Source of the DNA: Paramecium tetraurelia
Lineage: Eukaryota
Direction of reading: 5' to 3'
Length of the DNA stretch: 64,000 nucleotides
NCBI GenBank assembly: GCA_000165425.1
Contig: CT867989.1
Span: 62,001 to 126,000 of the forward strand
Shown: positions 1,350-56,544 of the stretch, piece by piece
How positions within the stretch are numbered: position 1 is the stretch's first letter
Layout of the letters: each line of letters begins with the position of its first letter
The notes under the pieces: generated by a model
What the model was told of the DNA's origin: nothing
The model's database searches: none
The model's input: the letters and a program-made list of their open reading frames with translations, nothing else
Position numbers and translations under genes: made by a program

Positions 1350-1415
1350 ACATATATATTTTTAAGAAAAGTTAAAAGAAAATTAATATTATTTATTTTT
1401 CACACGTCACAAATT

Positions 1416-3450
1416 ATGAAAACAATTATCCTCGTCGTACTTCTACTCGGAGCATGGGCATAGGAAAAGTCAAACAAAGTTGAATGCCCTGTCATTGGTA
1501 TTGATTTGGGAACAACATATTCATGTGTTGGAATTTACAAAAATGGAAATGTCGAAATCATTCCAAACGAATAAGGAAACAGAATTACACCCTCAGTTGT
1601 AGCATTTACAGATGAAGAACGTCTCATCGGAGAAGCTGCCAAAAACTAAGCAGCCATCAACCCTACCAGAACACTCTACGATGTCAAGAGATTGATTGGA
1701 AGAAAGTAAGAATATTAATCTTATAGTATTTTAGATTCACAGATTCCACAGTCCAATATGATAAAAAGTTTATGCCATATGATATCGTTGATAAGGACAC
1801 CAAACCATACATTAAAGTCACCAACATCAAGGGTCATCAATCCAAGATCTTTTCCCCTGAAGAAATTTCAGCTATGGTTTTGACCAAAATGAAGGAAATC
1901 TCAGAAACCTATTTGGGAAAGAAAGTTATTAATGCAGTTGTCACAGTGCCTGCCTATTTCAATGATGCTTAAAGACAAGCTACCAAAGATGCAGGAACCA
2001 TCTCAGGTTTGAATGTTGTGAGAATTCTCAATGAACCAACAGCAGCAGCTATTGCCTATGGTCTTGATAAGAAGGATGGAGAAAAGAACATCTTGGTCTT
2101 CGATTTAGGAGGTGGTACTTTTGATGTTTCCATCTTAACTATTGATAATGGTGTCTTTGAAGTCGTTGCCACTTCAGGAGATACTCACTTGGGAGGTGAA
2201 GATTTTGATCAAAGAATCATTGATCATTTCATCAAGGTCATCAAGAAGAAGCACAATAAAGATATCAGTGCTGACAAGAGAGCCATCCAAAAATTAAAGA
2301 GAGAAGTCGAAAAATCAAAGAGAGCTCTCTCAGCAACCCATGAAACTAAAATCGAAATTGAAGATTTAGTCGATGGTTTGGACTTCAATGAAGTACTCAC
2401 CAGAGCTAAGTTTGAAGAATTGAACAATGATCTCTTCAAGAAGACCACTGGTCCCATGTAAACTGCTTTGGAAGACTCTAAATTCAAAAAGACTGAAATC
2501 CACGAAATCGTTTTGGTTGGAGGATCAAGCAGAATTCCAAAGATTAGATAAATTGTTAAGGATTTCTTCAATGGAAAGGAAGCCAACACTGGTATCAATC
2601 CAGATGAAGCTGTTTGCTATGGTGCTGCCATCCAAGGAGGTATCATCTGTGGTGAAGAATCCAATGAAACTAAAGGTTTGATCGTTATCGATGCTACTCC
2701 TTTGAGTTTGGGTATTGAAACAGTTGGTGGAGTCATGACTAAAATCATTCCAAAGGGATCTTACATTCCAACCAAAAAGTCTCAAGTCTTCACTACTTAT
2801 CAAGATCAATAATAAACAGTTACCATCTCAGTTTTTGAAGGAGAAAGACCACTTGTTAAAGACAATCACAAGTTAGGAACTTTCGATTTGACAGGTATCC
2901 CACCAGCTCCAAGAGGAACTCCTTAAATTGAAGTTACTTTCGAAATTGATGCTAATGGTATCCTCCAAGTTGCTGCCCAAGATAAGGGAACAGGAGTCAA
3001 GAATCAAATTGTTATCACCAACGATTCAGGAAGATTATCAAAGGAAGAAATCGACAAGATGTTGAGAGAAGCTGAAGAGTTTGCTGAATAAGATAAAACC
3101 GCTAAGGAAAGAATTGACGCCAAGAACTCTTTGGAAAGTTACATCTACTCAATGAAGAACCAAATTGAAGTATTATTCTATATCTATCATTTTAGGATCC
3201 AGAAAAGTTGGCTAACAAATTGTCTGATGATGATAAGGATACTATTAAGGATGCATTGAAGGACAGCTAAGATTGGTTAGATAAAAATCAAAATGGAGAA
3301 AAAGAAGACTATGAAGAAGAACTTAAAGAATTAGAAAAGTATATTATTAATATATTCTTTAGAATCTGCAATCCAATCATTAGTAAAGTTTACTAGTAAT
3401 CTGGAAAATAACAATAAGCATCAGATGACGACTATGATTCCGATTTATGA
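1416..3450 (+). CDS. HSPA5: ER-luminal Hsp70 (BiP/GRP78)
   Basis: Signal peptide [51 protein letters not shown] motifs; introns 1706-1734, 3170-3195, 3339-3362; ends ...[11 protein letters not shown]. Confidence 0.96.
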
Positions 3451-10471: not shown

Positions 10472-13400
10472 ATGACGACTTGGAATGAAGTATCTTGTGA
10501 ATATAATTATGCAATTATATATAAATTAATTAAAAATCTTATGTTCTAATTGTATGAGAATGCTGAGAATTCAACCTACTCTTTTGAGTTCAAGTTGGAT
10601 CTAACTTTGTTGAATGTGTTGCGAGCATTCACACACAAAGATCATGAATTTTAGGAGGGTATAGATTAATAAGAATTAAGGATATTTGGAGTCAATTTAT
10701 GCACTATTATACTACTATCAGGGGAGACCAGAGAGTGAATTGTTTTCAGAATACTGCGCTTAGAAGGGAAATCACACAATAGAGTCTTTAATATTTTAGG
10801 GTATTGTGTGTGAAAATATATAAAGTACATTATTATATTGGGTCTCTGGCAAATTTAAATTAACTCGTGGGAGTGCTGAAGGTAGATGAGAACAAAGCTA
10901 TACCATTATCAAGAAGCGATATTAATAAGAAAAATATCCTGTCTGTGCATTCAATCAGCGATAGAGTGGGTTCAATAAATAGTATAGTGTTGGTGAGCAA
11001 GTCTTAGACTGTGAAACCAGAGTATCTCGATTTAAGAGTGAAGATCTGTACCTATGAGAATAAAGAGGAAGGCGTATTTTCAATTGATTACAATGTGCTC
11101 TCATTGGCAATACAAGCCAAGGGTAAGTTGGATCCATTGGTAGGGAGTCATTTGGCAAATAAATTGAATAAGATGTTCAAGATCAATCTGATTTAAAGTG
11201 GAGTGATTCCTAGATTACCAATTGCTATTGCATCCATATTTGAAGAAAATTTGAAGAAGAATGGTACTATGGTTAAGATGGAGAGAAAGAATGTTAATGC
11301 AATAAAAAAGTGGATTGAATACACAGCCAAATAATATCCAGCAGGCAGTATCATAGTTTAGAGTACAACATATAATTCATGGCCTTATCCTGCTTTAATT
11401 TATAAGCGAGGTACAGGTAGCAACTGTAGATTTGTTCTTTACTTTGTAAGATATTCCTATGACTTTTATGGGAGAGGAAGAAGGATTCGCATTTCGAGAA
11501 AAAACAACTTTCAATTATGTGACAAAATATGAGAGTTCAGAAATCAAATTGTAAGATCCAACTTAATAAAAGACACCATAGAGATCACTCAAGAGAGCAA
11601 AATCTTATATTCAAGTAAATGAGGATTACGGATTTGGATACAATACATTAACACATCAAGTTTAATTATAGATTGCATAATCACCTACCAAATCCAGTAA
11701 GAGTGGCTAACCTGTAAGAGTACAAAGAGGTTCTATTTTGTCATAGATGGATATCTCTAATATTGCAACAGCTCGGGAGAATTTTAGAAGAGAAGTAGGA
11801 CCATAATTTGGATTCGATTTATAACAGATTGGAAAACATTATGTTTACATTAGACAAATAAGGAAACAACATAAAGTGTTAAGAAATGGATAGATCGTAT
11901 CATTGTCAGCTGAACATATGTATGGATGGCACACACATGTATTGGCATTTGGTAGATATTCTAAAGAGGAAATGGCATTTGGTTGCAATCAATTTTAATG
12001 ATGGTGAAATTGATATGTTCATGAATCTTAGAAATTTATGATATTATTTTCCAAATTCATAAAGAGACTACAACTGGTGGATTGGGTGTTATGGTAGATG
12101 AATTAACATAGGAATTAGCTAAAATGAGTGAAGAAGTCATCTTGATCACTCAATATTATCATAGAAATAAGAAAGGGGAAACTGGGTATATACTTAGTGA
12201 TGGATTCAAACACATCAGATACATAGAAATTTGGATGTAGGGTGAAAAGATAATTTTGGGAGTATTTGAAAGAGTATTCAATGGAGTAAGATTGTTTTGG
12301 TTGCACAATGAACTATACTTCCCATCTGCATATGCTGGTGAAGATGCCTGTTAGGTTATGAAGTAATTAACAGTTTATGCTAAAGGATGTTTAGAATTAT
12401 TATGTTAAATCAAACTATTTCCATCATTAATTGGAACAAACGATTGGGTCTGTGGTTTAATCCCAGGATATTTTAGAGTAAGGAGATATGGAGAAGCCTT
12501 CGCTGGTACAAAATCATTTCACATTGTTCACAATTTAGATCCCTTGTATGAAGGAAGGCTATATCCTAAGCCTAATGAAGGAACATTAGATTACATCCAT
12601 GATCTTCCTAATGATTTCTTAATCGACCCCTTTTGGCAGAATTTAGTTATCAATCCATCGAGATGTCCTTTGATCACTTGCGATAATTGGGGAACAGTCT
12701 CTTAATCTTATAAATATGAGTTGCTAGAATCTTCCCCATTAGCAAGTGTGTTGAGGAGACATCCTCTGCCTTTTGCTTTTCCTAATGGGATAAGGAGAGA
12801 ATAAAGATTTAAGGTAATAATGGATAAAATTAGTAATGATCACTTGAAGGCCAAGGAACAATTGCAGAAGAAATATTTTGGTTGTTCCTAACTCGAAAAT
12901 CACATTGTTGTCCTGAGCTTTGTTGGTAGAGTGACCAAATAAAAGGGAGTGCATCTCATATTGGAAGTGGCTGAAGAACTCATCTAAAGAAGTCAAGGTA
13001 CTGTGTAGATATTGGTTGGTGGACCAGCAGCTGATATGAAAGAGGAGTACAGTGAGTATTGTGCTTAGAATATGATAAGATTGAAATCCATATATCCTCG
13101 AAACTTCTGGGCAGATCCATCAGCCTTCTTTATGGATGGTACATTAGTGAATGTGGGTTGTGACTTTGGATTAATGCCATCATTATTCGAACCTGGAGGT
13201 ATAGTGCAACACGAGTTTTTCATAGGAAGTACTCCAGTCATTGCTTTAAGACTGGCGGGTTGAGGGACAATGTTCATGAATATGATTAGAAACAATAGAA
13301 AGGATCTGGATTCATCTTTGATTAATACAAGAGAGGGAACTTCCTCTATGCCATAGACAGAGCTCTCTAGTTATATAAGAATCAAGAGTAGTATACTCAG

Positions 13401-31265: not shown

Positions 31266-32561
31266 TCATTTATCCTTTAGAAATTATTACAATGTTTGAG
31301 GATTGGAGCTTCCTTGAATTTGTTGAAAATTTTGTTTGACCTGTTGAATTTAATTATTTTAACCACTATTAACCATTTGGGGAGCCAAAAATTTGGTTAC
31401 ACAGGTGTTCTGATTTGGTTAATTCCGTTCTGACAATTATCCTTGTTATTTGACCCAATTATTATTATTTGGAAAATTTGGTGCCTTAGTAACAGTCTGT
31501 GAATGCCTATCTGTGTGTATAATTTATGGGTTAAATTTCGGTTGTTGATTTTATGTAGGAATGCATTAAGATTAAGATAAAGGACTCTAGTATGACAATT
31601 AATTCTAATCCTATTCTTGTTTGAATTAACAATTTGGTAATCCAACTTGCTACATAATTTTTTTTTCAATTTCGTCGTATAATTATTTCCATGTTTTTCT
31701 ATTATTTGGATTATAAACAAGTAGATTATTCAAAATGTCTTCTAGAAATTTGTCAGTGTTTTCTAAACTAGGATTTGAATTATCTTTATTATTTTACATT
31801 TACTAGAAATTCTTAAACCACAATACAAACTCGTTTTTTTCTAAACACTAAACTAATTACCTTTTTAATCCTTCATTTAAACTCTATTTTATAATGATTT
31901 CCAAGAGTACTAAGCCAAACTTTAAATATATATCTTGATTACTGAAAAAGCATCAGCTGCATAACTATAATTCGAATCTGTAATTTCTGGTGCTTTATAA
32001 CATCGAGTTCCTTGCTACCCATTTGTTTAAATTCTATCAATTTTAACCAACCCAAAGTCACAAATCTTAATAATAAGTTATATATTTTACTTTGTAAATC
32101 ACTCTATTTTACCTCAAATCTAAATTTACTAATATATTTTCAGGTTTTAAATCTCTATGAATAATTTCTTAATCTTATAAAGCTATGTACCCATTAGAGA
32201 TTTAAGAAATAAAGTCCAGGATTTCATTGAGATTTAATTTATTTGATTTTTTATTTATGTATTTTTAAAAATCCATTTCACAAAATTCTTAAATAACATA
32301 AATTTCAGTCTTATTTTACAACACTTTATAGACTCTTAATATATTCTAATGAAATATTGTAGACATTTTTTCATGGTTTGTAATTTACTTCTGTCTTTCT
32401 GTTTCATCTTTAATTTCAATTTTTTTAGCGCAACAATTCTAATTTGTATCATAATTATATGCGTAGTAAATTCCATCTGCACCAGGAACCTACTTATCAT
32501 AAACAATGTAAGGTCCTTATTAAATTTTTATTTAATAGAGTTGACAAAATTTCGAGTTCAT
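31266..32561 (-). CDS. Ser/Thr protein kinase (ULK/CAMK-like) with Q/N-rich tail
   Basis: CCAKKI, IIHRDLKPENILV, ICDFGLVK, GTRCYKAPE, AADAFS. Confidence 0.85.
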
Positions 32562-33740
32562 TTATAAAATGATTGATTTTCTATAAAGGTAATAAATTTA
32601 TTTAATAATAATTTCAAAACTGATTTTTTTTCCTTTTTCAGAAATGCATTGTGCTAGCCACTTTAAAAAATTATAAATGTAAATTTATTTCTTTCTTAAG
32701 TTCATATAATCAATTCCACTATTTTTAACAATTATATTATATTCTTAGTTTATTTCCTAATCTCTGAATATTATAATAAAGTATTTCTAATCTTTGATAT
32801 TTTATGTAATTAATACTCTCTACAACTATTCTTCCACACTTCTAAGTTTTAGCTCTTTAATATTTTTGTTCACTAGGATAGACTAATTTTATATGTTCAA
32901 TGAAGAATTTATTTATTTATTATATTAAAATTTTAAATCCACTTGTTAAATAAGATTCTCCAATATAATATTTATTTTTCTTGCAATCTTTACAGCAAAT
33001 TTCTATTAATTATGTAGTGATATTGGGCGTCTTCTGAATAATTTGTCATAATTAAATTTAAGTCTCTAAGATGGTAGAATTCTATAAGATTTCTCGTAAG
33101 ATAAAAACATAGTGAGGTTGAGAATCAATATCTCATAATAAATTAATAATAAATTTGGAATAATTTATCTAATCTTATGGATAAATTCTTATTTTTGAAT
33201 AACTAACAAAATTATTCTCTTACATAAGTTAACCAAAATATTTTGAAACTATTTTGCAAGGCTTCTTGTTATGTATAATATCTTCAATTCAATTCGTGTA
33301 GAATAAGCTTTTTTCAAGTTTATATTATTATATCATTAAAACCATAAATTAATACATCATAAACAAAATAGAAATAGTTCTTTTGATAATAATTTTATTT
33401 AATGTTCTAATATAATGATTGAAATAAATGCGATCACTATGACAATACTTTTTTAAGTAAAATATTCTTAATCTTAATAATATATTTTCTTTAATTAAAT
33501 TTAATTTTTAGACTGAATTTAACATCTGAAATTTTCTATACCATTTTTATTATCTAAAGTAATTAAAACCTGTTTTTAGGTAAATCTCAGAATAATAGGT
33601 TTTCTACTTCAAAAAGTGTAAGGTTACCATAGATTTTTAGCCTTTAGAGCAGAAAAACCGACATTAATTATTTAAAAAGTATGATGAGTGTGATTTAATT
33701 TCATTAATTCTTATAATTTTTTTAACAAAGAGCAATCAAT

Positions 33741-40801: not shown

Positions 40802-42572
40802 TCAAAACTCTAATTTTCTGATATACTCGAAATTTTCCTTTAAAAATTCCTTTTAAAATTTTTCAGGCCACTTCAATTCTTTAGCCATGATCTAGAACAC
40901 TTTCTCATACACATTAAAGATAGCATTCTAATCTAAGAAACCCAATCTTGTTCTCCTAAACAAAATGTCCTCAGGTTTTCTAGCTTGCTCATATCTAATC
41001 TGGTACAATATTTCTCCAACAGTATGGGGAAATTGTGGGTGCAAACTTTCCTTATTCTCTGGTTTTTCATGAACCAACTTTAAAACATCATATGCTCTGT
41101 CCCCATACGTTGTTAAGAAATAGGCTGCATAAGTTTAAGGTAAATTGAACATTTTCATCATATCTTAGATTTCCTTCTTATTATCAAATTATGTCCAATC
41201 ACCAACCAATTTGGGTAGATTCTCTAACCTTTTTTAATTGTTTCCAATTAATCCTTGAACCTTATCTACTGCTTATTCACCCATCAATCTAAAGATAGTC
41301 CATTTACCACCCATAACTGATACTAAACCACTTTTTGATACTTCTATTTCATGAGTTCGTGAAACTTCTTTTGTACTGAGAGCATTGCTTTAATAAACTA
41401 AAGGTCTCACTCCACACCATTTGGATTTTACATCTTTAGCTACTTCACTTGCATCAATTGCAAATTCATCACAAAATGATTACAATAACCATCTATATTC
41501 CTCTTTGCTTACTGTAGGATCACTAATTGCATTATCTAATTTTCGTTCAGTTGTTCCCATTATTATATTTCCTAACCATGGTAGCAGATAGAGAACTCTG
41601 CCATCATTAGTTTTTGGTATCAAATATCCCCACTAATGAGATCCATATTTTTGGGGCATGGTTAAGTGACTACCTGCTACTGAGACTATCCTCTTGCTAA
41701 CAGTTGGATCATCCATTAAACGTAAATTATCAGCCCAACCACCAGTTGCATTAACAACACATTTGCCTTTGATTTGAAATTGTTTCTATCCAATCTTGTC
41801 AAATGCTTGAACTCCTGTGATTTTATTTTATTCATTTTTTAATAAACCTTTAACTTCAACATAATTTGCCATGTTCTACCCTTATCAAATAACTCATAAT
41901 AATACCTTTTAGACTTGATGTAACTAGTAATTCTTAAACCATTCTGGCATCATTGAATTACCCATCATAATAAATGACCCCATAATTACATTTTGCAAAT
42001 TTAAAATGTTATTAAATTTCTTCTTTGCCAACTATTCTCGGAGGCTTAAAAGTATGTCCTCCTGTTTAGTAGTATAAGTAAACACAATGATAAATTAAAG
42101 ACCCAAAATAATAGTAACCCAAATCAAATAAATTTGTACAAGGTATCAAAGTAGGGAAATCTTATGTTAAATAAGAACACATTGATAAAAAGTTGGATCT
42201 CTCTCTTAATGCCTCTGCAACCAGTTACAACTTTTCCAATCTGTTTTTTTCCGACAATTGGAATACTTGTTACATGTACCTTACACCTCCATGAACTAAT
42301 TTTGTCGATTTGCTTGATGCACCACTTGCATAATCTTGCGACTCCAAAACTATTGATTTCAATCCTCTGTTAGCACAAGCAAGGGAAACACCTGCCCCAG
42401 TAGCTCCTCCCCCAACAATAATGACGTCGTATTCATTTAATAGTGCGTCAGCTAAATGTTCCTCTCTACTCTTCAATTTATAATGGATGTGCCTTGAATC
42501 TCCAGTACTTTATAATTAGACTTTTCGCTAGGTTAAAATTGAGGCTATTGCAACAAAGGCCACTCTATTCAT
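40802..42572 (-). CDS. GPD2: Mitochondrial FAD-dependent glycerol-3-phosphate dehydrogenase
   Basis: DVIIVGGGATGAGV, DYASGASSKSTKLVHGGVRYM, YYDGQFNDARM, VVNATGGWAD, WCGVRP, GGKWTIFRLM, EDILFRRTRLGFL. Confidence 0.96.
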
Positions 42573-43731: not shown

Positions 43732-45582
43732 TCATTTCTTGGTCCAGGCGTGATAGAAAGCTGAGGAGGAGGATAGGGTAAAAAAAACACAATAAAATAT
43801 TGTCAGTAGTTTGGCTATGGACTTTGATATGATATAATGGTTTCTGACTGCCATAATTAATGTAAATAACAAATTAAGAAAGGCTGCTAGAATAACCATC
43901 AATTTGAAAGCATTTTACTCAATGTCAATTATACTAAACAAATTGAATTTGATGGGACCTTGATTCACAAAGTTCTGTTTCAAGAAGGCAACACTAAATC
44001 CAATCAAGTTTGTAAACATTTGACCAACTACAAATAGTTTTATCATTTTTACAATAAATTCCATTCAAAGCCATTATTGCTATAAATAGTGTTATTTCTT
44101 ACCATAACCTTCTTCAGCCAAAGAAACCAAGGTGATGCAATCTGGTAGTACATTCCCCATAGCAATCAAACTAAATCCCAAGTATGTTTTATTTAATTCT
44201 GTTATTATGCCCCAAAATTGAAGAAAATCTATTAATAAACCAGATAAAAAGAATATCCACACCAATGAACCTAAAATACAATATAGCTAAAGGTAGAAGA
44301 AATATTTTGGAGGAGTTTTTTAAGATGGGATTGTAGTATTTAAGAAAATAGAAATTCCGAATCCAAACAATAATGCTAAAAAGTAAACCCACCAATGAGG
44401 GAAGCTAAAAACAACAGAAACAAAAAAAATGGATCCTGGAATTGGAAAAACTAAAGCAATAATCAACTGATATTTACTTATTGCTTGATTTTTATCAAAC
44501 TAATCTTCCTTAGGTCCAGGCAATGTGTATTTGAATACTTACATCAAAGGGTAGATGATGATTGCCCTTATCTTCTCATATAATGACAGTCTTTCCCATT
44601 TCTACTTTTAAGTTTCAATATTGGCCATTGTCAACTGCACAGCAAATCTGAACTTTTTAGCTAGCATCTTCACTCTTGCATCTCCTGTTACATAATTTAA
44701 TCTAATTAGTGGAGTTGCCCATTTAACTGGCTTAGCAGCTAATTCCTATTCAGATTTCTTGTCCCAAAGATATAGCAATTTCATATCATCGAATTTCTAA
44801 GCAATCTCTAAATCATATTTAGCTTCATGAACCGTCTGCATTCTCTCACCCAAACTATCTTTTCTACTTTTCAATATTTTGTCTCTTTCTTAATAATAGA
44901 CCAAAGAAACTAGTAGCAAATATAAGACTGTTAATGAAATGCTAGAGAAGTAAGAGATTTAGCCAATAACTCCAAATACCATAATCACAAAAATAGAGAT
45001 TATTTGAAATCCAACATTTCTCCAAAAATGCACAGGATCCATTTTGATTTAAGATTTCGATGTTTTTGTTATTAGATACACGCCTATGCTGCATAAAAAC
45101 TAAAAATAAATTGAACAATCTATATTTTACAAATCCTGCTCCCATTGTGGCTCCAATATTATAATCAATCCCTCCTGGATAGGATGAAGCTACTAATGCA
45201 GTTAAAACGTCACCAGCCCCATTTCCAAATGCAAGTAATGTTACTCCTGCCATAATTTCTGAAACATCGAATTTCACTTTGACTGCTTCTAAAGATGGAA
45301 TTAGAAACTCTTTTATAATCTCGCTTATTCCATTATAGACCAAATAACCAACAAATCCAGACACAATTAAAGTGGTCTAAAAGTTAATGTTCTATTTACC
45401 ATAATTGAACCATTTAGCCAACAATAACTTAAAATGCTATAATTGAAGTAGAGGAAATCATGTTAGCAATACTGTTAGGCAATGTAACATTGTTAACTAT
45501 GCTCTGTTGCTGAAAGGAAATCAGCTTTTTGACATGAAAGAACTTTCGGCTCATAAGGAGCTGCAGATAAATGTTCTAACAT
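43732..45582 (-). CDS. Cation/Ca2+ exchanger (CCX/NCLX-like)
   Basis: Cys-rich N-terminus; AGVTLLAFGNGAGD (alpha-1); LGFSLIAMGNVLPD (alpha-2); GQMFTNLIG. Confidence 0.9.
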
Positions 45583-48601: not shown

Positions 48602-49451
48602 TACATTTAATATAATTATCTAATATTAAACACAGATTTATATTATTACTTATTTATTATTATTGAAAGTTTTGAAGTTAAAAGTAATTAACTATCATTT
48701 ATTTAATTTTTTGAGTAATTTAATCTTATAAGTAAATATATTCATTATGATTAAAGTTCTTAATTATAATAGATGCAACTGGTTAATAATTTGATTTCCA
48801 TTAATCATCACAATTTCTATTTTCAAAAAGGATTTTTTATTAAGGTGAAGGTAATTTTTCATTAAACGAATAAATGATATATCTAATCGCCTGGAATTTA
48901 GAGTATTAATTTACATAAATGACCTCTAAAATACAAGATAAAGTTTACAAAAATATAATTCTATTTGTTTTAATTTTTTACAACAATACTCTTTATATAC
49001 ATTTCACAATAATATATAAATCCATTAATAGAATTTTTTGAACATGGATTTCTTGTTCTTTCTAATTTTCTTGAACCTTAATCCGTTTTGATAATGTATC
49101 TTTAGTCAATCTTAATTATTATTTAGTTTTTTAATCAATTCTTGGAGAACATATCAAATTTAATATCTTACTTATTTGTAATTTATTATCTTTTGATTCA
49201 AGAGTGATAGTTGAAATTTCGATCGCCAAAGGTTATTAAGATAACATATTTGCAATTCTTATTTAAAAGTAGAGAGAAATTGTTGTTCTTTAGTTTTTGA
49301 ATTAATTTTAATTCTTTTTGATTATTTTACATTATCTATACGAAGTAAATATAATTAAATAAATTTTAAATTTATTAATTTGTGGATTTGGAACATCCCA
49401 CGTATAAAAACTATTTTTTTAATGAATGCGAAAAATAATTTATAATATATT

Positions 49452-50683
49452 ATGTTAAATTAAATAAAAGACAAACCACTTTCTTAGCTAATACTTGAAC
49501 TATAATAAAAATACCAAGAGGACAATGAATAATCAGACATATTTTAATAGTTTTATTAGAAGAAATAGGAACAGGAGAGTTCAACAGATTCATCTCACTT
49601 TGTGCCTGCATTGCTTTCGGGGACTACTGGCTCTTAATCTTCAAATTCTCAAGAAAATAATAACAAAAATTAGGCATGCAAAAAAGGTATAAAAAAGGAA
49701 AAGAAATAGAAAAATACTGGAAAGGGAATCTAAGATAAGAAATAAGAATTACCTCAAACAAACGATAAAAAGACTGTATAAATGATCAAAAATAGAATAT
49801 CAGCCTAAAATTCAAGAGATAGAAAGAAAGCTTATTTATAAAAATTGGAAGAAGACTTTGTCAATTAATCTGCTCAATTAAACGAAATGCATGAACAAGT
49901 CAATCAATTATAATAATAATTAGAGGAAGCTCATAGAGTAAATTAACAGTTACAACAATAATACTCTGTTTTGACTTGCTTGAATTGTGGTAGTAGAAGT
50001 TTTGGATTTGATGATGAAGATCCAATTTTTGTCTCAAAGAATAAAAGTCTTGGAAAATTAGGATTATCATTTTTGTTTATCGTTGCACTCATTGCATGCA
50101 TATCTATTGATTTATATCCTTAAACACAAAATTTAAAGAGAATTGATTTTTAAGAAAACTAGAGTCGAAATTTAAATGCTAATGATAGTCATTTTCAGAT
50201 CTTTGATCATGTTTCATAAAGTAGAATAAGAGGTATGACTGAAATTATGGAATATAATTCAGAATATAATTATAAGTTTTTTGATACCACATACAGAGCG
50301 ATTTTACAAAGTGATGAAAGTTTAGTTAATGGATTGATTAATTTTAACAAAGAAAGGGTTAAAAATAATAATGGGAAAGCTTTGGCTCCTCTTAATTATC
50401 ATAAACCATTAGTTGATTCTCTCTATTGTCCTACAATATATAAGTACTAAAATCAAACATAGGGGTAAGACCTAAATATTATTTTATTAGTATTTAAGTG
50501 CATTACCAAGATAAACAATGGCTTCATTTGATTATTCCAAAGAATAGAGTTAAAATCTTTATTTAAAATACTGATAATTCAATCGTTTTAAAGGAAAGCT
50601 TTACTGAATCCAAAAATGAACATAGACAAATATATTAAGAAATTTGGTGTTAAATAAAGAGCGTCAGTGATTTCTTTATTTGA
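49452..50683 (+). CDS. Membrane-tethered bZIP transcription factor (ATF6/CREB3/bZIP28-like)
   Basis: bZIP basic region QMIKNRISAQNSRDRKKAYLQKLE, heptad zipper, single TM (LGLSFLFIVALIACISI), C-terminal domain ending WLHLIIPK...YQEIWCQIKS; one intron near 50465-50490. Confidence 0.85.
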
Positions 50684-50773: not shown

Positions 50774-53407
50774 TCAATCAAATTTAAACTAATAATAATT
50801 ATTGTTTGAGTTCTGATATAAGAGCATCTATTTCAAATTCATGTTGATTAATTTCGAAAATAGCCATAGATATTGAAGTTTAAAATTTTTACAGTAACTT
50901 AAAATTGGAATTCAAAGCTTAGATTTGTGTTCTTATTCGTTTTTCTTACTAAATACTTTCTAATTTCTATTTTTGTTTTTTGCGTTCTTCTAATTTTTCA
51001 GACTTGATTTCTTCATAAATTAATGAATGACATTTTCCATAAAATAGATCAATCTTATTTTTGTCAACTTTTTCCTTCTTTTAAAATTTGGCAATGTTTC
51101 TAATAATATGAACCAACTTCTTTCTCATAATTCTATCGATGGATTCTTATTTACTCTTCAATATGAAAGACTTAATCATTTCTTCATCGTCGCAAACTTT
51201 AACAAAATTGCTCAAGAGTTTTTAGCCAAACTTTTTTGATTTTTATTTGCTCCAAGCACTATTAACAACTCTATTGTTTATTAAGCTTTGAATAATTCGA
51301 TAATCAGGATCATCCACAGAAATATTTTAAATTTTTTTAGATTTCTAGACATAATACTTAACTTTAGAAATAGCCTAATAATTAATTATAAAAAGTTACT
51401 TTTACAAACCTTTCTCTAATAATTTCAAATCTAGCTTATTTTTAGCCTACAATTTATAACATTAGATCTTGTTAAACACTTTAGTATGGACGATTATCAA
51501 ACTTTTATTTCAAATTATCCAATTGTTAAGCAATCGTATTTTTTCGGTTTAAATACTAATTCTCATTAATAGCATGTCCTCGTCTAATTTTGTTGAGTTT
51601 TTCTATTAAAATTAATAATATTTTTACAGCGCTTCAATTTGGCTTATTGAAATAGTATTATTTTTCTTCTCTTGTACATTTATTGCAATTCAAAAAATTA
51701 AGGTGATTCATTTTATAGTTATTCAGAAAAGAAATGAGCAGAACACATCAAAACAATGCTCTCCTGCAATGCCAAAGCACTCCAGCATCTTGGTGTATAT
51801 TCAATTGATTCAATCTCACCAAAGCATGTTCCTTCCATTACGCTTATGATAGATTCTCCATGTGCATCACATAATCTCACATCTCCTTTGATAAGAAAAT
51901 AGAAATCATTGGCACTTTATCCTATATGATATATAGTTTCAAATTGTTAATAGCAGGCTAAGGAACAATTGGGTAATATAGCTGCAGAGAAGTTAATGTC
52001 ATTAGACATAAAAGGAATGGTTCTAAATATTTCTTTGTGGACAGCTGCCATCATATACAAAATTAATGGGTGTGGCAATTCAGAAAGTATCCTCTTAGCA
52101 TCGTCAGCCCAGAAGGGATTGTACTGAATATTATATTTTGTAAATCTAAACAGGTCATCTTGCATCCATTCAGGCATGTTTACACTTATGTCTTCCAAAT
52201 TAAATAGTTAATCGTCAAATTCTTAGTTGGGATTGGATTAAATCAAAATGAATGTGATGTTTCCGATAGTGAATGAATAATATCCAACTCCTATTAGCAT
52301 CCAAATGTTTACAAGTAAGTATTCATCAGAATTATGGGCCTCGATATCCCCATAGCCTATTACTGTTATAGTTTGATACGCCCAAAAGAAGGCTTAGACC
52401 AATTGAGTGAATTGATCCTTCTCATTAAAGTTATAATAAGATAACCAGTTTGTATTCTCGTTGAATCTGCAAATCCACAACCACAAACAAGCAAATAAGT
52501 GATTGAGTACTATCATTTCCATAAATATCTTCATCAACTTCTTGAGTCTCAAATCCAGATTATATTCACTTCTGATTACTAATTCATCTTTAATTGCTCT
52601 CTACTGTTTCAAAAGATCAAGGGATTAATTGTATGCGACTCTTCTTTCAAATAGGAAAAATCGAAATAATCTAATTAGTTTTAATATTTTGAGTCCAGTT
52701 AAATTAAAATCAGGGAGTACTGAGATTAGGTCAAACATAAACCAACCACTTAAATAATGTTAAGCAATATCCTTAAAGTTGTAAATCAAATCAAGTTATT
52801 TATTGACGTGACAAATAAAAAAATTCATGATTAGATCCAACCAAAATATTATTTGTATTGCCAATGTTAGTTGACTGCCTACTCCCTCTATTATATTTTA
52901 TATAATGTACTTCAAAGTCGAATGCAACTTGCAAGGGAAATAAAATTGCTGCAAAATCAGTGCATAAATTTATAATTAATCCCCATATAATATAAGGGAT
53001 ATCATCTGGAAATAGAGGTAATAGGCTTCTTCTTTTGTAGGCATAGCGTAAATTTTGAGTCCTCAACTGTTCAGCATAATTCCTTAGTTCTTCTATGAAG
53101 TGTTAGGCATTAATGATCTTCCTGATTAGCTTTTAAAATTATAGCTTCCTGTCTTGCCGCTGAGAATTAGTGGGGGAGATAGTAGCTGTTGTGGATAATT
53201 GTATGCTTACATATAAAACTGATTATCTTACAAATTTTTTACTGTTTTAGCTCTGTATTTTCTTATGTTATTATTTATGGGTTGTAGAAATCCACTATGA
53301 GTTTGTATCAGGCCAACTTAAGATCCCATTTCTGTAAATTGCCTCTGACTACTCCAGGTATGTAATGTCTCATTATCCTCCTTGTGTTTAAAGGGATGAA
53401 TTTTCAT
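50774..53407 (-). CDS. Cyclic-nucleotide-binding-domain cation channel (KCNH/HCN-like), copy 1
   Basis: S4-like LKILKLIRLFR; pore FFWAYQTITVIGYGD; C-linker; CNBD FYFLIKGDV...EGTCFGEIE. Confidence 0.88.
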
Positions 53408-53583: not shown

Positions 53584-56544
53584 TCAATCAGTTAAAGGGG
53601 TATATTGACTTGGCTTTATTTTCGATTTTCTAATAATGCTTTGTATGTGTTCAGATCTAATTGTTCTTCTGGGTTTTTGAAGTTTTTGGAGGATTTTATC
53701 TAAATTGAAGTGAGTAAAATAGTAGGTTGTAATAAAATATCTATCTAATTCAAAATCCACTCTCTAAATTTAATTAGGAGAATCGCTTGGTCTTAAGGAA
53801 ATAACTTCGTCCAACTAGTTAACCATGTTACTACCAGTGACCTCAGATTTAGATAGAGATTTTGCAGGCATTTCAAGATCCATGTTTGAATACGAACTTG
53901 AATTATTTTTCCTTAGTTTTTAGACACTTTATTAAGTTTATTGAGTTTATTACACTTATTATTACTACTATTACGGGACTTGATCTTATGAGATACAAGT
54001 AATGTTGGTAAATCTATTATTAGATATTTGAGTCAATCTCTAAAGAGTTTTATGTCTATTATCTGCTTTCCTTCTGAATGAGTTTTAAGCTCTGAGAACC
54101 TTAGGTTCTGGTTCAGGAGTTGGATGAAATTTAACCTTCTTCTGTTCCATACTTTGCAGATGAGAGTATTTCGATGATTTAGGAGTTTTAGTTTTATTAA
54201 ATTAGGAACTGGATTCATTACTACTGGAGGAATCACTGCTGAATTGTTCGAATCCTGTAAATCCTCTTAACATGGATTTATTAGACTTTTGACTTTTCAA
54301 TGTTTTGATTATTCTTCCATTTTGATCATCCTCCATGTTGAAACCCAGCATATCTAGATATTAATCTGTTAAATCATCTATTGAAATGATGTTATCATTA
54401 ACAATAATGGCCAAAGCGTGTTCTCTTATGATGTTCCTCTGAAACATTCTCTTCATCTCCACTCTATTATGGGAGGCCCTTATCATATCTTCTGACATCA
54501 TAAACTTCTTTCTGATTCTATCTTAGTTAAAATGCACGAAAACTAAAGGACAACTAATTGAATTCAGAAGTATACTTCTTAAATTGATGTGTCCATTTGC
54601 AAATGCAACAAACCTCTCCATAATTTTACTTCTCCTCTGTAAACAACATTTGATCTCGAAGCATGCAGTAATTCTCTTCTTCTAAAGCATCTTCACGAAC
54701 AACCCTAAGAAAATCCTCATAACTATATTTAGAATGAAATTAAACTTGATAAATGCAATCTAACAGAATTTGGTAGATCTAATAGAGTAATCATAACGTG
54801 CCTAAGTAATAAATTCTTTTTCACCCACAAATTTGCCTTCCTCAATAGTGGCAACAATAGTTTCTCTCAACTTCTAATCACCTTAAAATTACTCAAAATA
54901 AGAAATTACAAATCAAACTCAATTATCCACTTTAGATAAATATAAGTTTATTAGCTTAATCATTTTGTGTTGCTATAATCTCTTCAGGGGCTACCTTAAG
55001 TTCATGTACATATGAACACAATTTTTGAACACTTTTCAATGATAAGGTCTACTTGATTAATCTGGATTTCTTCAACATTTCACAATACATATCTATTGCA
55101 ACCTACTCTTTTAACTTCTTATCTAGATTGACCATCATTTTTTCGCCCAATTCATTGTAATCTTGTTCCATCCTTAAAAAGTATTCGAAGTATTTCCTAA
55201 CCTACAACATTAATTATTTGTTAATATTTTTCTTCTTAAGGAAGTTGTTTATGTGCATCATTTACTACTTGAATTACTGTTCTTTCTCAGTCAGTTATCT
55301 TAAAATATTTCCAATACTCGATATTGTGTATCCGAATAGACCACATATCACCATAGCCATTAAAATCACATAGATTCTCTCTAAATCGGTCTGAGGTACT
55401 ATATCACCATAACCAATAGTTAAAGTAGTAATTGTACTGAAATAGAAAGCGTGTATGTATTTTGTGAGCCAACTTGCATCAGTGATATTCTTGGCTATCA
55501 ACCATGAATTCTTCCCATTCTCCAATTGGTTTTCTCCTATCAAATTCCATAAGCATGCACAAAAATGAGACACAAAAAGTACCAAAAACATAGATTTGAA
55601 GAGTTCCAATATGGTTTGCACATTGATTGATGGGTTTGTGACTTCCTCAATTGCTTCAATCATCGATTTCACCTTCGTCACTCTCAATAACAAAATGTAT
55701 TCTGTGTAAGGCACTGAATAAGATGACAAAATAAATGGAATTACAATCATCAAGTCCCACCATAATTGAAGACTTGCATAATGTTTTAGAATTTCCTACT
55801 TATCTCTATGAATTTAACCTTGGCTATAAAAAGCAGTAAAGAATGTCAGTATTATATCGATCACAAAGGTCCAAGAGGGCAAGGTCTCTAAAAATATACT
55901 ACTCAGAAAGTCTTCTCTTTCAAAACCAAATCCCAACTTCATCGGAATGTAGAATATGTTGATGATAATTTGGGTTAATACAAAAATGTCCCAAATTATT
56001 TTAATATTTGAGTCGGGATCCAAAACAGGCAACTAATTCAAAATCCATTTCAAATTCTGCATTACTTATTCGACTTTATTCAATTTATGCAATAAATTAT
56101 CTGCGTCGCTTGCTTAATCCTGAATCAAATCCACTATCTCATTTGTTAATGATTTGAACTTGACCTCCATCGAATGAGTTTTCATTTACTTTACAAATTT
56201 AGTGATATAAAACATTATTCTCAGCCCTCCATGGACCCACAAATTAGTTTTTTCCTTGATCTCTATTTGGAGCATGCTCTTACTATCCTCCTCCATATCA
56301 GGGTCGGGATCAGGACTCAAGATATCTCCTTTAAAAGCATTTTAGACAGGTTATTGTATTTCAATCTTTCTATTTGAACATACATTTGGCTCGAATGATG
56401 CATCCTCGCTATTGTTATCACAATGAGGCATGGTGAACCCTTAACGATACTTCAAAATTCCTTTGAATGTTTGACTCTTAATTACTAAATAGCTTACCTT
56501 CTTTATTTCTAAGTTCCCAAATCAGATTCAAAGAGTAATGACAT
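53584..56544 (-). CDS. Cyclic-nucleotide-binding-domain K+ channel, copy 2
   Basis: PVLDPDSNIKIIWD; SHFCACLW; FYFSTITTLTIGYGDIVP; CNBD (EGKFVGEKEF); post-CNBD CxxC-x3-H-x4-C. Confidence 0.9.

What the first reader, a model, noticed from the sequence alone, without database searches (positions are those of the whole stretch)
49452..50683. ATF6-like membrane-tethered bZIP: candidate proteolysis-activated ER-stress sensor in a ciliate
Seen: N-terminal bZIP (MIKNRISAQNSRDRKKAYLQKLE), one TM helix, a post-TM R-N-L (SRNLN), N-x-S/T sites, and a C-terminus WLHLIIPK...QEIWCQIKS. Known: ATF6, CREB3 and plant bZIP17/28 have this type-II layout and are released by S1P/S2P. As I recall, the ATF6 luminal end has the similar KMSIVLP...MQIDCQV. 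Alveolate parasites are usually described as lacking a transcriptional UPR. Inference: an ATF6-type branch operates in ciliates.
Basis: partly seen in the sequence, partly recalled or inferred. Interest (0 to 1): 0.8.

Follow-up and report, generated by a model that had tools for sequence, protein, structure and literature searches.

The report
Membrane-anchored bZIP factor in Paramecium
This Paramecium gene encodes a DNA-binding bZIP protein tethered to a membrane by a single helix, with a conserved domain of unknown type on the far side; it has the layout of stress sensors such as ATF6, but kinship with ATF6 and a stress role are not shown.

Summary
Window 49452-50683 (+) is a two-exon Paramecium tetraurelia gene with one 26-nt intron, read with TAA/TAG=Gln. 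Its 401-aa product equals a database protein named only "BZIP domain-containing protein".

It has:
- a Pfam-significant bZIP,
- a conserved CxxC,
- one strong hydrophobic helix (0 of 2000 shuffles as hydrophobic),
- a conserved 180-aa C-terminal domain with two near-invariant cysteines and conserved N-glycosylation sequons.

That is the type-II layout of ATF6, CREB3 and plant bZIP17/28.

The ATF6 interpretation is only partly supported:
- A luminal-domain profile searched over 1.84 billion proteins found only Paramecium relatives and fragments. PDB and Pfam searches found nothing.
- The canonical R-x-x-L site is absent. The looser R-N-L motif is chance-level, is lost in the closest ortholog and overlaps a sequon.
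- S1P/S2P could not be searched because no genome is held.
- Both structure models were unusable.

Full-length relatives were found only in Paramecium species, one metagenome contig and one unplaced environmental protein. None was found in other named ciliates.

Best reading: a lineage-specific membrane-tethered bZIP released by regulated proteolysis, and a functional analogue of ATF6 rather than a demonstrated member. It is a new variant of a known kind, supported by computation only.

The parts
49452..50464 (+). Exon 1 of the gene (aa 1-337 plus two bases of codon 338), ciliate code
   Evidence: The spliced product equals P0003.
50465..50490 (+). 26-nt intron, GTAAGA...TTAG
   Evidence: A 25-nt intron sits at the same place and phase in the metagenome homolog L001.
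50491..50683 (+). Exon 2 (aa 338-401) with the TGA stop at 50681-50683
49452..49631 (+). Conserved N-terminal region (aa 1-60). It is a predicted helix and a candidate activation or regulatory region.
   Evidence: Identity to paralogs is 65-100%. AF2 predicts a helix at aa 10-44, at low confidence. The function is inferred.
49761..49967 (+). bZIP domain (aa 104-172): basic region followed by a leucine zipper with L129, F136, L143, V150 and L157 at 7-residue spacing
   Evidence: Pfam bZIP_1 30.7 bits, above the 27.6 cut-off. PDB bZIP hits. Heptad register.
49977..49988 (+). CxxC motif (C176-L-N-C179) at the end of the zipper, on the cytosolic side next to the membrane
   Evidence: C176, N178, C179 and G180 are invariant in 13 of 13 Paramecium sequences. 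The motif lies 62-68 residues after the basic motif in 11 of the 12 proteins scanned. The 240-aa soluble P0025 lacks it.
50049..50117 (+). Single transmembrane helix (aa ~200-222), predicted signal-anchor, N-terminus in the cytosol
   Evidence: Kyte-Doolittle 2.49, reached by 0 of 2000 shuffles. Hydrophobicity is kept while identity falls to 43-48% in the distant paralogs. K196, K198 and K202 lie on the N-terminal flank.
50163..50189 (+). Conserved island in the juxtamembrane luminal linker (aa 238-246, SRNLNANDS): an [RK]-x-[LI]-N motif overlapping an N-x-S/T sequon
   Evidence: [RK]x[LI]N is present in 12 of 13 sequences and a sequon at this spot in 13 of 13. The motif alone is chance-level, arising in 599 of 2000 shuffles.
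50220..50680 (+). Conserved C-terminal (predicted luminal) core, aa 257-401, interrupted by the intron. It contains C326 (50427-50429), the N334-Q-T sequon, the WLHLIIPK block and C391 (50648-50650).
   Evidence: Identity to full-length paralogs is 64-94%. Both cysteines and NQT occur in 12 of 12 full-length sequences. The LAP, FCP, IPK and (E)[IV]WC blocks are shared with the distant P0030, and the C-terminal fragments P0020 and P0022 carry the blocks that fall within their span.

Best explanation
The gene encodes a type-II membrane-anchored bZIP transcription factor precursor of a lineage-specific family. So far the family comprises Paramecium species and a few environmental sequences.

Topology. 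The N-terminal ~195 residues face the cytosol. They carry a conserved N-terminal helix, a lysine-rich stretch, the bZIP and a CxxC motif. One signal-anchor helix (aa ~200-222) holds the protein in the ER membrane. A conserved ~180-aa domain lies in the lumen, is glycosylated, and carries one pair of conserved cysteines.

Proposed mechanism. The luminal domain senses a luminal condition, most likely folding or redox load. Regulated proteolysis at or in the membrane then frees the bZIP half, which enters the macronucleus as a dimer and activates target genes. In function this is an analogue of ATF6, CREB3 and plant bZIP17/28, built with a luminal domain that has no detectable relative in those families.

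What is shown and what is inferred:
- Shown by sequence: the gene model, the bZIP, the single hydrophobic helix, and conservation of the C-terminal domain, its cysteines and its sequons.
- Inferred: ER location, topology, cleavage, the protease, the signal and the target genes.
For: - Gene model: the spliced product is identical to the database protein P0003. The intron position is conserved in L001.
- bZIP: above Pfam's curated cut-off. PDB bZIP chains match aa 97-162. Five hydrophobic heptad positions follow the basic region.
- One TM helix: KD 2.49, reached by 0 of 2000 shuffles. No second hydrophobic stretch exists (next best 0.27).
- Topology clues:
  - Three lysines sit within 8 residues before the helix.
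  - Sequons are conserved only after the helix: 13 of 13 at the linker site, and NQT in 12 of 12 full-length sequences.
  - Sequons before the helix are sparse and not conserved.
  - Exactly two cysteines follow the helix, both present in 12 of 12 full-length sequences.
- The C-terminal core is as conserved as the bZIP in the distant paralogs (64-69% against 65-70%), which points to a functional domain.
- The same architecture recurs in a distant environmental protein, P0030 (541 aa): bZIP, CxxC, hydrophobic helix (KD 1.99) and a C-terminal domain. hhalign to the luminal profile gives probability 61.8%, E 7.7e-5, with the LAP, FCP, IPK and VWC blocks aligned.
- Human ATF6alpha likewise has two conserved luminal cysteines whose redox state controls trafficking and S1P cleavage (PMC8944254, passages read). 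This is a functional parallel only.
Against: - There is no experimental or expression evidence of any kind.
- Cleavage is unsupported by sequence:
  - Canonical R-x-x-L is absent.
  - The looser motif is chance-level and is not kept in the closest ortholog.
  - No Asn or Pro lies in the core of the helix of this protein, by my reading. The requirement for helix-breaking residues in S2P substrates is recalled knowledge.
- Whether Paramecium has S1P or S2P could not be tested. Two literature searches pairing 'site-2 protease' with Paramecium or Tetrahymena gave nothing relevant.
- The luminal domain has no detectable relative among known sensors, so the nature of the signal is a guess.
- Both AF2 models were unusable, with mean pLDDT 41.7 and 35.3. 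Even the fold of the luminal domain is therefore unknown.
- Four old paralogs exist in P. tetraurelia. One of them, P0015, is annotated as truncated at 274 aa without the luminal core. The luminal domain may therefore be dispensable in some copies, or that copy may be mis-annotated.
Confidence: 0.6

Rival explanations
1. It is a true ATF6 ortholog. On this view the luminal domain descends from the ATF6 luminal domain, the protein is cleaved by S1P and then S2P after ER-to-Golgi transport, and it drives a canonical transcriptional UPR.
For: - The overall layout is the same.
- There are two conserved luminal cysteines, as in ATF6alpha (PMC8944254).
- An [RK]-x-[LI]-N island lies ~16-20 residues after the helix in 12 of 13 sequences.
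Against: - The exhaustive HMMER profile search returned no ATF6-, CREB3- or bZIP28-like protein among its 7 hits at E<=0.001.
- PDB and Pfam searches were empty.
- The language-model look-alike search of the luminal part scored at most 0.80, a level that shuffled proteins reach a third of the time.
- The cysteines are 65 residues apart with the second one 10 residues from the C-terminus. In ATF6alpha they are C467 and C618.
- R-x-x-L is absent, and the R is replaced by Q in the closest ortholog.
- The resemblance of the C-terminal motifs rests on recalled sequence and was not tested.
Confidence: 0.12
2. It is a CREB3/OASIS/CrebA-like regulator of secretory capacity rather than a stress sensor. 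It would be released when demand on the secretory pathway rises, for example during renewal of trichocysts after discharge, and would scale up ER, Golgi and cargo genes.
For: - The membrane-tethered layout is the same.
- The top PDB match to the bZIP is chain 6iak_A (E 0.0087), named only 'Uncharacterized protein'. By my recollection its basic region looks CREB3L-like; this was not tested.
- Paramecium has a very large regulated secretory system (established knowledge).
Against: - The PDB ranking barely separates 6iak_A from TGA7 and Jun (E 0.0087 against 0.013-0.04).
- The conserved 180-aa luminal domain with a cysteine pair suggests luminal sensing. My recollection is that CREB3-family luminal tails are short and poorly conserved.
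- There are no expression data.
Confidence: 0.18
3. It is a permanently membrane-bound bZIP, sitting in the ER or inner nuclear membrane. It would either act while tethered or be controlled by turnover, without regulated release. Alternatively, release could occur by a non-S1P/S2P route such as a proteasome- or Ddi-type clip or a signal-peptide-peptidase or rhomboid cut.
For: - No convincing protease site is present.
- The conserved cytosolic CxxC next to the membrane, present in 11 of the 12 family proteins scanned, hints at regulation on the cytosolic side by metal or redox.
- Relatives with the same basic region and CxxC have only weak hydrophobic segments (P0027 and P0028, KD 0.77-0.81) or unrelated C-termini (P0017, hhalign probability 0.07%). 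The module upstream of the membrane may therefore be what matters.
Against: Strong conservation of the luminal core is hard to explain if the lumen plays no part. The known type-II bZIPs are all activated by release (established knowledge).
Confidence: 0.1
4. It is a bZIP60/XBP1/HAC1-type factor. IRE1-dependent unconventional splicing of the mRNA would remove the membrane anchor.
For: Plant bZIP60 also encodes a bZIP followed by a TM helix (established knowledge; title and abstract of PMC3216516 seen in the listing).
Against: The coding region holds only one C-N-G-N-N-G-N heptamer, at 49572, far from the TM-coding part and with no flanking stem (0 bp). There are no twin hairpins.
Confidence: 0.02

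Closest known systems
ATF6 (animal ER-stress sensor, type-II membrane bZIP)
   Same: Both have a cytosolic N-terminal bZIP, one signal-anchor helix and a sizeable glycosylated luminal domain with exactly two conserved cysteines (ATF6 cysteines from PMC8944254).
   Different: - No detectable sequence similarity exists in the luminal domain.
- There is no canonical R-x-x-L site.
- The luminal domain is shorter and the cysteine spacing differs (65 residues, against C467 and C618).
- There is an extra cytosolic CxxC.
- The protein is 401 aa.
CREB3/OASIS/CrebA family (membrane-tethered bZIPs that scale secretory capacity)
   Same: The layout is the same. The bZIP of this protein matches PDB chain 6iak_A best (E 0.0087). 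That chain's basic region looks CREB3L-like by my recollection.
   Different: The margin over other bZIPs is negligible. The conserved 180-aa luminal domain has no counterpart that I could detect.
Plant bZIP17/bZIP28 (S1P/S2P-activated) and bZIP60 (IRE1-spliced)
   Same: These are membrane-tethered bZIPs outside animals. They show that this design serves the UPR in distant lineages (established knowledge).
   Different: - No plant protein appeared among the 7 luminal-profile hits.
- There is no R-R-I-L-type site.
- There are no IRE1 splice hairpins.
Environmental protein P0030 and the Paramecium paralogs P0004-P0014 (unnamed family)
   Same: These are true relatives. They share the basic region M-I-[KR]-N-R-I-S-A-Q-N-S-R-D-R-K-K-A-Y, the CxxC, the helix and the luminal blocks LAP, FCP, IPK and [IV]WC.
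   Different: None has any functional annotation beyond 'BZIP domain-containing protein'. P0030 has a longer luminal domain and lacks the linker island.

Membership tests
bZIP transcription factors (Pfam PF00170) | Basic region plus leucine zipper scoring above Pfam's gathering threshold | tested here: met
   30.7 bits against a cut-off of 27.6, E 3.3e-7, aa 104-158. bZIP_2 scores 25.3 against 22.3. The heptad positions are L, F, L, V, L.
Type-II membrane-tethered bZIPs (architectural class: ATF6, CREB3, bZIP17/28) | A single TM helix C-terminal to the bZIP and no N-terminal signal peptide | tested here: met
   One window of KD 2.49 at aa 203-221, reached by 0 of 2000 shuffles. The next best window is 0.27, so the N-terminus holds no hydrophobic stretch.
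Type-II membrane-tethered bZIPs (architectural class) | The C-terminal part lies in the ER lumen | tested here: inconclusive
   Only indirect sequence signs are available: conserved sequons (13 of 13 and 12 of 12) and a conserved cysteine pair after the helix, with lysines before it. Topology needs an experiment.
S1P/S2P-activated factors (ATF6, CREB3, SREBP, bZIP17/28) | A luminal S1P site of the R-x-x-L or R-x-L-x type near the membrane (consensus recalled) | tested here: inconclusive
   R-x-x-L occurs 0 times in the first 40 luminal residues. R-N-L-N is present and [RK]x[LI]N is kept in 12 of 13 sequences. However, R-x-[LIV]-x arises in 599 of 2000 shuffles, the closest ortholog has Q, and the motif overlaps a sequon.
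S1P/S2P-activated factors | S1P (subtilase) and S2P (peptidase M50) are encoded by the same genome | not testable with these tools
   No whole genome is held for this window. The literature searches found nothing.
ATF6 family (orthology) | The luminal domain is homologous to the ATF6 luminal domain | tested here: not met
   At HMMER sensitivity, a profile of 7 luminal domains searched over 1,835,955,588 representatives gave 7 hits at E<=0.001, none ATF6-like. PDB gave 0 hits and Pfam none. More remote homology is not excluded.
ATF6 family | Two conserved luminal cysteines | tested here: met
   C326 and C391 are present in 12 of 12 full-length Paramecium sequences and are the only cysteines after the helix. 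The ATF6 feature is taken from PMC8944254.
ATF6 family | Stress-induced ER-to-Golgi transport, cleavage, and induction of BiP | not testable with these tools
   Needs experiments.
IRE1-spliced bZIPs (XBP1, HAC1, bZIP60) | Twin stem-loops with C-N-G-N-N-G-N loops flanking a short unconventional intron (consensus recalled) | tested here: not met
   One heptamer occurs in the whole coding region, with a 0-bp stem.

The most novel reading that the evidence does not exclude
Paramecium has its own ER-lumen-to-nucleus signalling arm. It would be a membrane-tethered bZIP whose lineage-specific luminal domain reads folding or redox load through one cysteine pair, while a cytosolic CxxC adds a second redox or metal input. 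Regulated release of the bZIP half would drive chaperone genes such as the BiP gene 48 kb upstream in the same window, which carries a CACGTCA bZIP-type site 7 nt before its start codon. This would be a transcriptional UPR branch in an alveolate. [quoted passage not shown]
Probability: 0.3. Interest if true: 0.75.

Novelty: new variant of a known kind. Interest (0 to 1): 0.55.

Why it matters
Membrane-tethered bZIP sensors are experimentally known in animals (ATF6, CREB3 family) and plants (bZIP17/28/60).

One paper I read states that amoebae have no homologues of ATF6, S1P or S2P and calls the mechanism a recent acquisition (PMC8507491, passages read). My recollection, checked by no call, is that alveolate parasites are described as lacking a transcriptional UPR.

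A conserved four-paralog family with this layout in a free-living alveolate gives a concrete, genetically tractable candidate. It allows a direct test of whether ciliates signal from the ER lumen to the macronucleus, and of whether the design arose repeatedly or is ancient. The luminal domain is an uncharacterised domain family, and the juxtamembrane CxxC is a feature I do not know from ATF6 or CREB3.

Ten full-text searches found no paper describing such a protein in ciliates.

Tried and rejected
1. Structure route.
   - AF2 on the full-length protein with 13 sequences gave mean pLDDT 41.7, with the luminal part below 50.
   - AF2 on the luminal domain alone with alignment A3 gave mean pLDDT 35.3.
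   - Both models are too poor, so no fold search was run.
2. ESM Atlas.
   - The luminal part scored at most 0.80, which is chance level, and structure TM-scores were at most 0.38 on a pLDDT-0.41 model.
   - The whole protein returned only generic, unnamed bZIP clusters.
3. PDB profile (0 hits at E<=10) and Pfam on 7 luminal domains (best E 0.11).
4. Word-index searches.
   - The luminal region alone found only Paramecium (11 of 81 candidates).
- The bZIP region at E<=10 gave 20 proteins from 67 candidates, none named ATF6, CREB3 or XBP1.
5. P0024, an 899-aa protein that hit the luminal profile in 8 stretches, is a tandem-repeat protein. hhalign probability is 0.4%, so I rejected it as spurious.
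6. P0017/P0018 and P0027/P0028 share the basic region and the CxxC, but their C-termini do not match the luminal profile (hhalign probabilities 0.07% and 0.79%).
7. Metagenome scan.
   - Alignment A3 was too divergent for pattern design (error).
   - With A2, 121 pattern matches yielded 1 confirmed locus, L001.
8. IRE1-type splice hairpins: none found.
9. Own-genome search for peptidase M50: no genome is held.
11. Earlier findings of this scan: three look-ups returned nothing.
12. TGACGTG motif count in the window: 2 observed against 0.98 expected, and 25 of 100 shuffles reach 2, so there is no enrichment.
13. Papers opened for ciliate UPR content held nothing on sensors (PMC10428556, PMC12998183, PMC11476214, PMC3710099; passages only).
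Full report
**1. What is in the sequence**

The window is AT-rich, with 23-35% G+C in 2-kb steps. Under the standard code the frame is full of TAA and TAG codons. Under NCBI table 6 a frame is open from 49380 to 50531, and a second frame runs from 50426 to 50683. A 26-nt GTAAGA...TTAG intron at 50465-50490 joins the two frames in phase. The spliced coding sequence (49452-50464 plus 50491-50683) gives 401 residues and ends at a TGA. It is letter-for-letter the database protein P0003. Sources name P0003 only 'unnamed protein product (macronuclear) [Paramecium tetraurelia]' or 'BZIP domain-containing protein'. A metagenome homolog, L001, has a 25-nt intron at the same codon and phase. An in-frame ATG also lies 30 nt upstream at 49422. 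All 13 family members are annotated as starting at the M-L-[NKT]-[QK] that corresponds to 49452.

**2. Checking the observation**

- bZIP: Pfam bZIP_1 scores 30.7 bits against a curated cut-off of 27.6 (E 3.3e-7, aa 104-158), and bZIP_2 scores 25.3 against 22.3.
- PDB matches: phmmer finds only bZIP chains over aa 97-162. The best is 6iak_A 'Uncharacterized protein' at E 0.0087, followed by TGA7 at 0.013 and Jun/AP-1 at 0.03-0.04.
- Zipper: hydrophobic residues L129, F136, L143, V150 and L157 follow the basic region at 7-residue spacing.
- TM helix: there is exactly one strongly hydrophobic stretch, with a Kyte-Doolittle mean of 2.49 over aa 203-221. None of 2000 shuffles of the protein reached this value (maximum 2.37), and the next best window elsewhere scores 0.27.
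- SRNLN lies at aa 238-242.
- There are five N-x-S/T sequons, three of them after the helix.
- WLHLIIPK and QEIWCQIKS are in exon 2.

**3. The family**

The word-index search with exon 1 found 13 full-length or near-full-length relatives, all from the Paramecium aurelia species group. Four of them are in P. tetraurelia itself: P0003, P0005 (78%), P0010 (59%) and a 274-aa form, P0015.

Region-by-region identity of the distant paralogs to this protein is as follows:

| Region | Identity |
|---|---|
| N-terminal 60 residues | 65-72% |
| bZIP | 65-70% |
| TM helix | 43-48% |
| Luminal linker | 19-32% |
| C-terminal core (aa 257-401) | 64-69% |

The C-terminal core is therefore as constrained as the DNA-binding domain. 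The helix keeps its hydrophobicity but not its sequence, as a membrane anchor would.

After the helix there are exactly two cysteines, C326 and C391, in 12 of 12 full-length sequences. An N-Q-T sequon is also present in 12 of 12, and a sequon in the linker in 13 of 13. Sequons before the helix are sparse and not conserved. Three lysines lie within eight residues before the helix. Together these features favour a topology with the N-terminus in the cytosol and the C-terminus in the lumen. This remains an inference from sequence.

**4. Wider relatives**

The bZIP-region search (20 proteins at E<=10 from 67 candidates) and the first search brought in unnamed environmental proteins. These carry an almost identical basic region and a CxxC motif 62-68 residues after it. 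The CxxC is present in 11 of the 12 proteins scanned; the exception is P0025, a 240-aa soluble P. tetraurelia bZIP.

One of them, P0030 (541 aa), also has a hydrophobic helix (KD 1.99) and a C-terminal domain that aligns with the Paramecium luminal profile. hhalign gives probability 61.8% and E 7.7e-5, and the blocks LAP, FCP, IPK and VWC line up. Fragments P0020 and P0022 carry the same blocks.

The C-termini of P0017/P0018 and P0027/P0028 do not match the profile, with hhalign probabilities of 0.07% and 0.79%.

No protein of a named ciliate outside Paramecium appeared in any search. 'In ciliates' is therefore broader than the evidence allows.

**5. Is it ATF6?**

The layout matches, but the test of kinship did not.
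- A profile of seven luminal domains (A2) was scored by HMMER against 1,835,955,588 representative proteins. It gave 7 hits at E<=0.001: the family itself, five fragments of 34-85 aa, and an 899-aa tandem-repeat protein. The repeat protein is spurious, with hhalign probability 0.4%.
- Nothing resembling ATF6, CREB3 or plant bZIP17/28 was returned.
- The same profile found 0 PDB chains at E<=10. Pfam gave nothing better than E 0.11.
- The language-model look-alike search scored 0.80, which is chance level.
- Two AlphaFold2 runs gave mean pLDDT 41.7 and 35.3, so no fold comparison was possible.

Very remote homology therefore stays open, but it is unsupported.

One real functional parallel exists. 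Human ATF6alpha has two highly conserved luminal cysteines (C467 and C618) whose disulfide state governs trafficking and S1P cleavage (PMC8944254, passages read). This protein also has exactly two conserved luminal cysteines, but with a different spacing: 65 residues apart, the second one 10 residues from the C-terminus.

**6. The protease site**

The canonical R-x-x-L does not occur in the first 40 luminal residues. R-x-[LIV]-x does occur (R-N-L-N), but such a motif appears in 599 of 2000 shuffles. Across the family [RK]-x-[LI]-N is kept in 12 of 13 sequences, within a linker that is otherwise only 19-32% identical in the distant paralogs. This makes it a real conserved island. However, the closest ortholog (P0004, 91% identical) has Q instead of R. 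In 11 of the 13 sequences the final N is the Asn of the conserved sequon. Glycosylation therefore explains the conservation at least as well as a cleavage site does.

S1P and S2P genes could not be sought, because no genome is held for this window. Two literature searches found nothing.

An IRE1-type unconventional splice, as in plant bZIP60, is disfavoured. There is one C-N-G-N-N-G-N heptamer in the coding region, with no stem.

**7. Best explanation and rivals**

I read the gene as a lineage-specific, type-II ER-anchored bZIP precursor. Its cytosolic half would be released by regulated proteolysis in response to a luminal signal, making it a functional analogue of ATF6. My confidence in that whole chain is 0.6. 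The membrane-tethered bZIP part alone is much more secure.

The rivals are:
- true ATF6 orthology (0.12);
- a CREB3/CrebA-like regulator of secretory capacity, which is attractive given Paramecium's trichocyst system (0.18);
- a permanently tethered factor, or one released by a different route, perhaps governed by the cytosolic CxxC (0.10);
- IRE1 splicing (0.02).

**8. Novelty**

Ten full-text searches found no paper on an ATF6-like or membrane-bound bZIP in Paramecium, Tetrahymena or ciliates in general. The papers opened held nothing on ciliate UPR sensors (passages only). PMC8507491 states that amoebae lack homologues of ATF6, S1P and S2P.

The protein is in the databases, but only as an unnamed bZIP protein. 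I rate it a new variant of a known kind: the known design of a membrane-tethered bZIP combined with an uncharacterised luminal domain and a juxtamembrane CxxC. All of this is computational. No supplements were consulted.

**9. Seen in passing**

The same window holds an ER-type Hsp70 (BiP-like) gene with a signal peptide at about 1416-3450. One of the window's two TGACGTG sites lies 7 nt before its start codon. The count itself is not enriched: 2 observed against 0.98 expected.

Noticed in passing
window 1416-3450 (+): A multi-exon ER-type Hsp70 (BiP-like) gene. Pfam HSP70 gives E 2.2e-197 for the 1772-3256 exon. The upstream exon starts with a signal-peptide-like [15 protein letters not shown]. 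In the frame I read, the last exon ends ...DYDSDL rather than a classic KDEL or HDEL. It would be the natural reporter gene for testing the bZIP.
   Followed up: partly
window 1403-1409: CACGTCA (the reverse complement of TGACGTG, an ACGT-core bZIP-type site) lies 7 nt upstream of the BiP-like start codon at 1416. It is one of only two TGACGTG sites in the 64 kb. The total is not enriched: 0.98 expected, and 25 of 100 shuffles reach 2. Its position so close to the ATG may fall within the 5' UTR.
   Followed up: partly
window 49977-49988 (aa 176-179) and proteins P0016-P0018, P0026-P0030: A CxxC motif lies at the end of the zipper, 62-68 residues after the basic motif, in 11 of the 12 family proteins scanned. 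It is invariant in the 13 Paramecium sequences. In a zipper dimer this would bring four cysteines together next to the membrane, which could form a metal or redox site. I do not know this feature from ATF6 or CREB3 (recalled).
   Followed up: partly
protein P0025 (P. tetraurelia, 240 aa; not in the window): A soluble bZIP with the same basic region (MIRNRISAQNSRDRKKAY) but no CxxC and no hydrophobic helix (best KD 0.63). It could be a dimerisation partner, or a counterpart of HAC1/XBP1.
   Followed up: no
protein P0015 (P. tetraurelia paralog, 274 aa): This paralog is annotated as ending just after the RIKG-TDLMEY block, so it lacks the luminal core. It may be a mis-called gene model, a pseudogene, or a naturally truncated form.
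   Followed up: no
window 49422-49424: An in-frame ATG lies 30 nt upstream of the annotated start (ORF 49422..50531). All family members are annotated from the downstream Met.
   Followed up: no
window 51566-53044 (-) and 54896-56431 (-): Two neighbouring ion-channel genes lie just downstream. Both match Ion_trans and Ion_trans_2, and the first also has a cyclic-nucleotide-binding domain.
   Followed up: no
window 12091-13260 (+), 40805-41872 (-), 32061-33110 (-), 44068-45267 (-): Other recognisable genes: a starch/glycogen-synthase-like glycosyltransferase, an FAD-dependent glycerol-3-phosphate oxidoreductase (DAO plus DAO_C), a protein kinase, and a Na/Ca-exchanger-like membrane protein.
   Followed up: no
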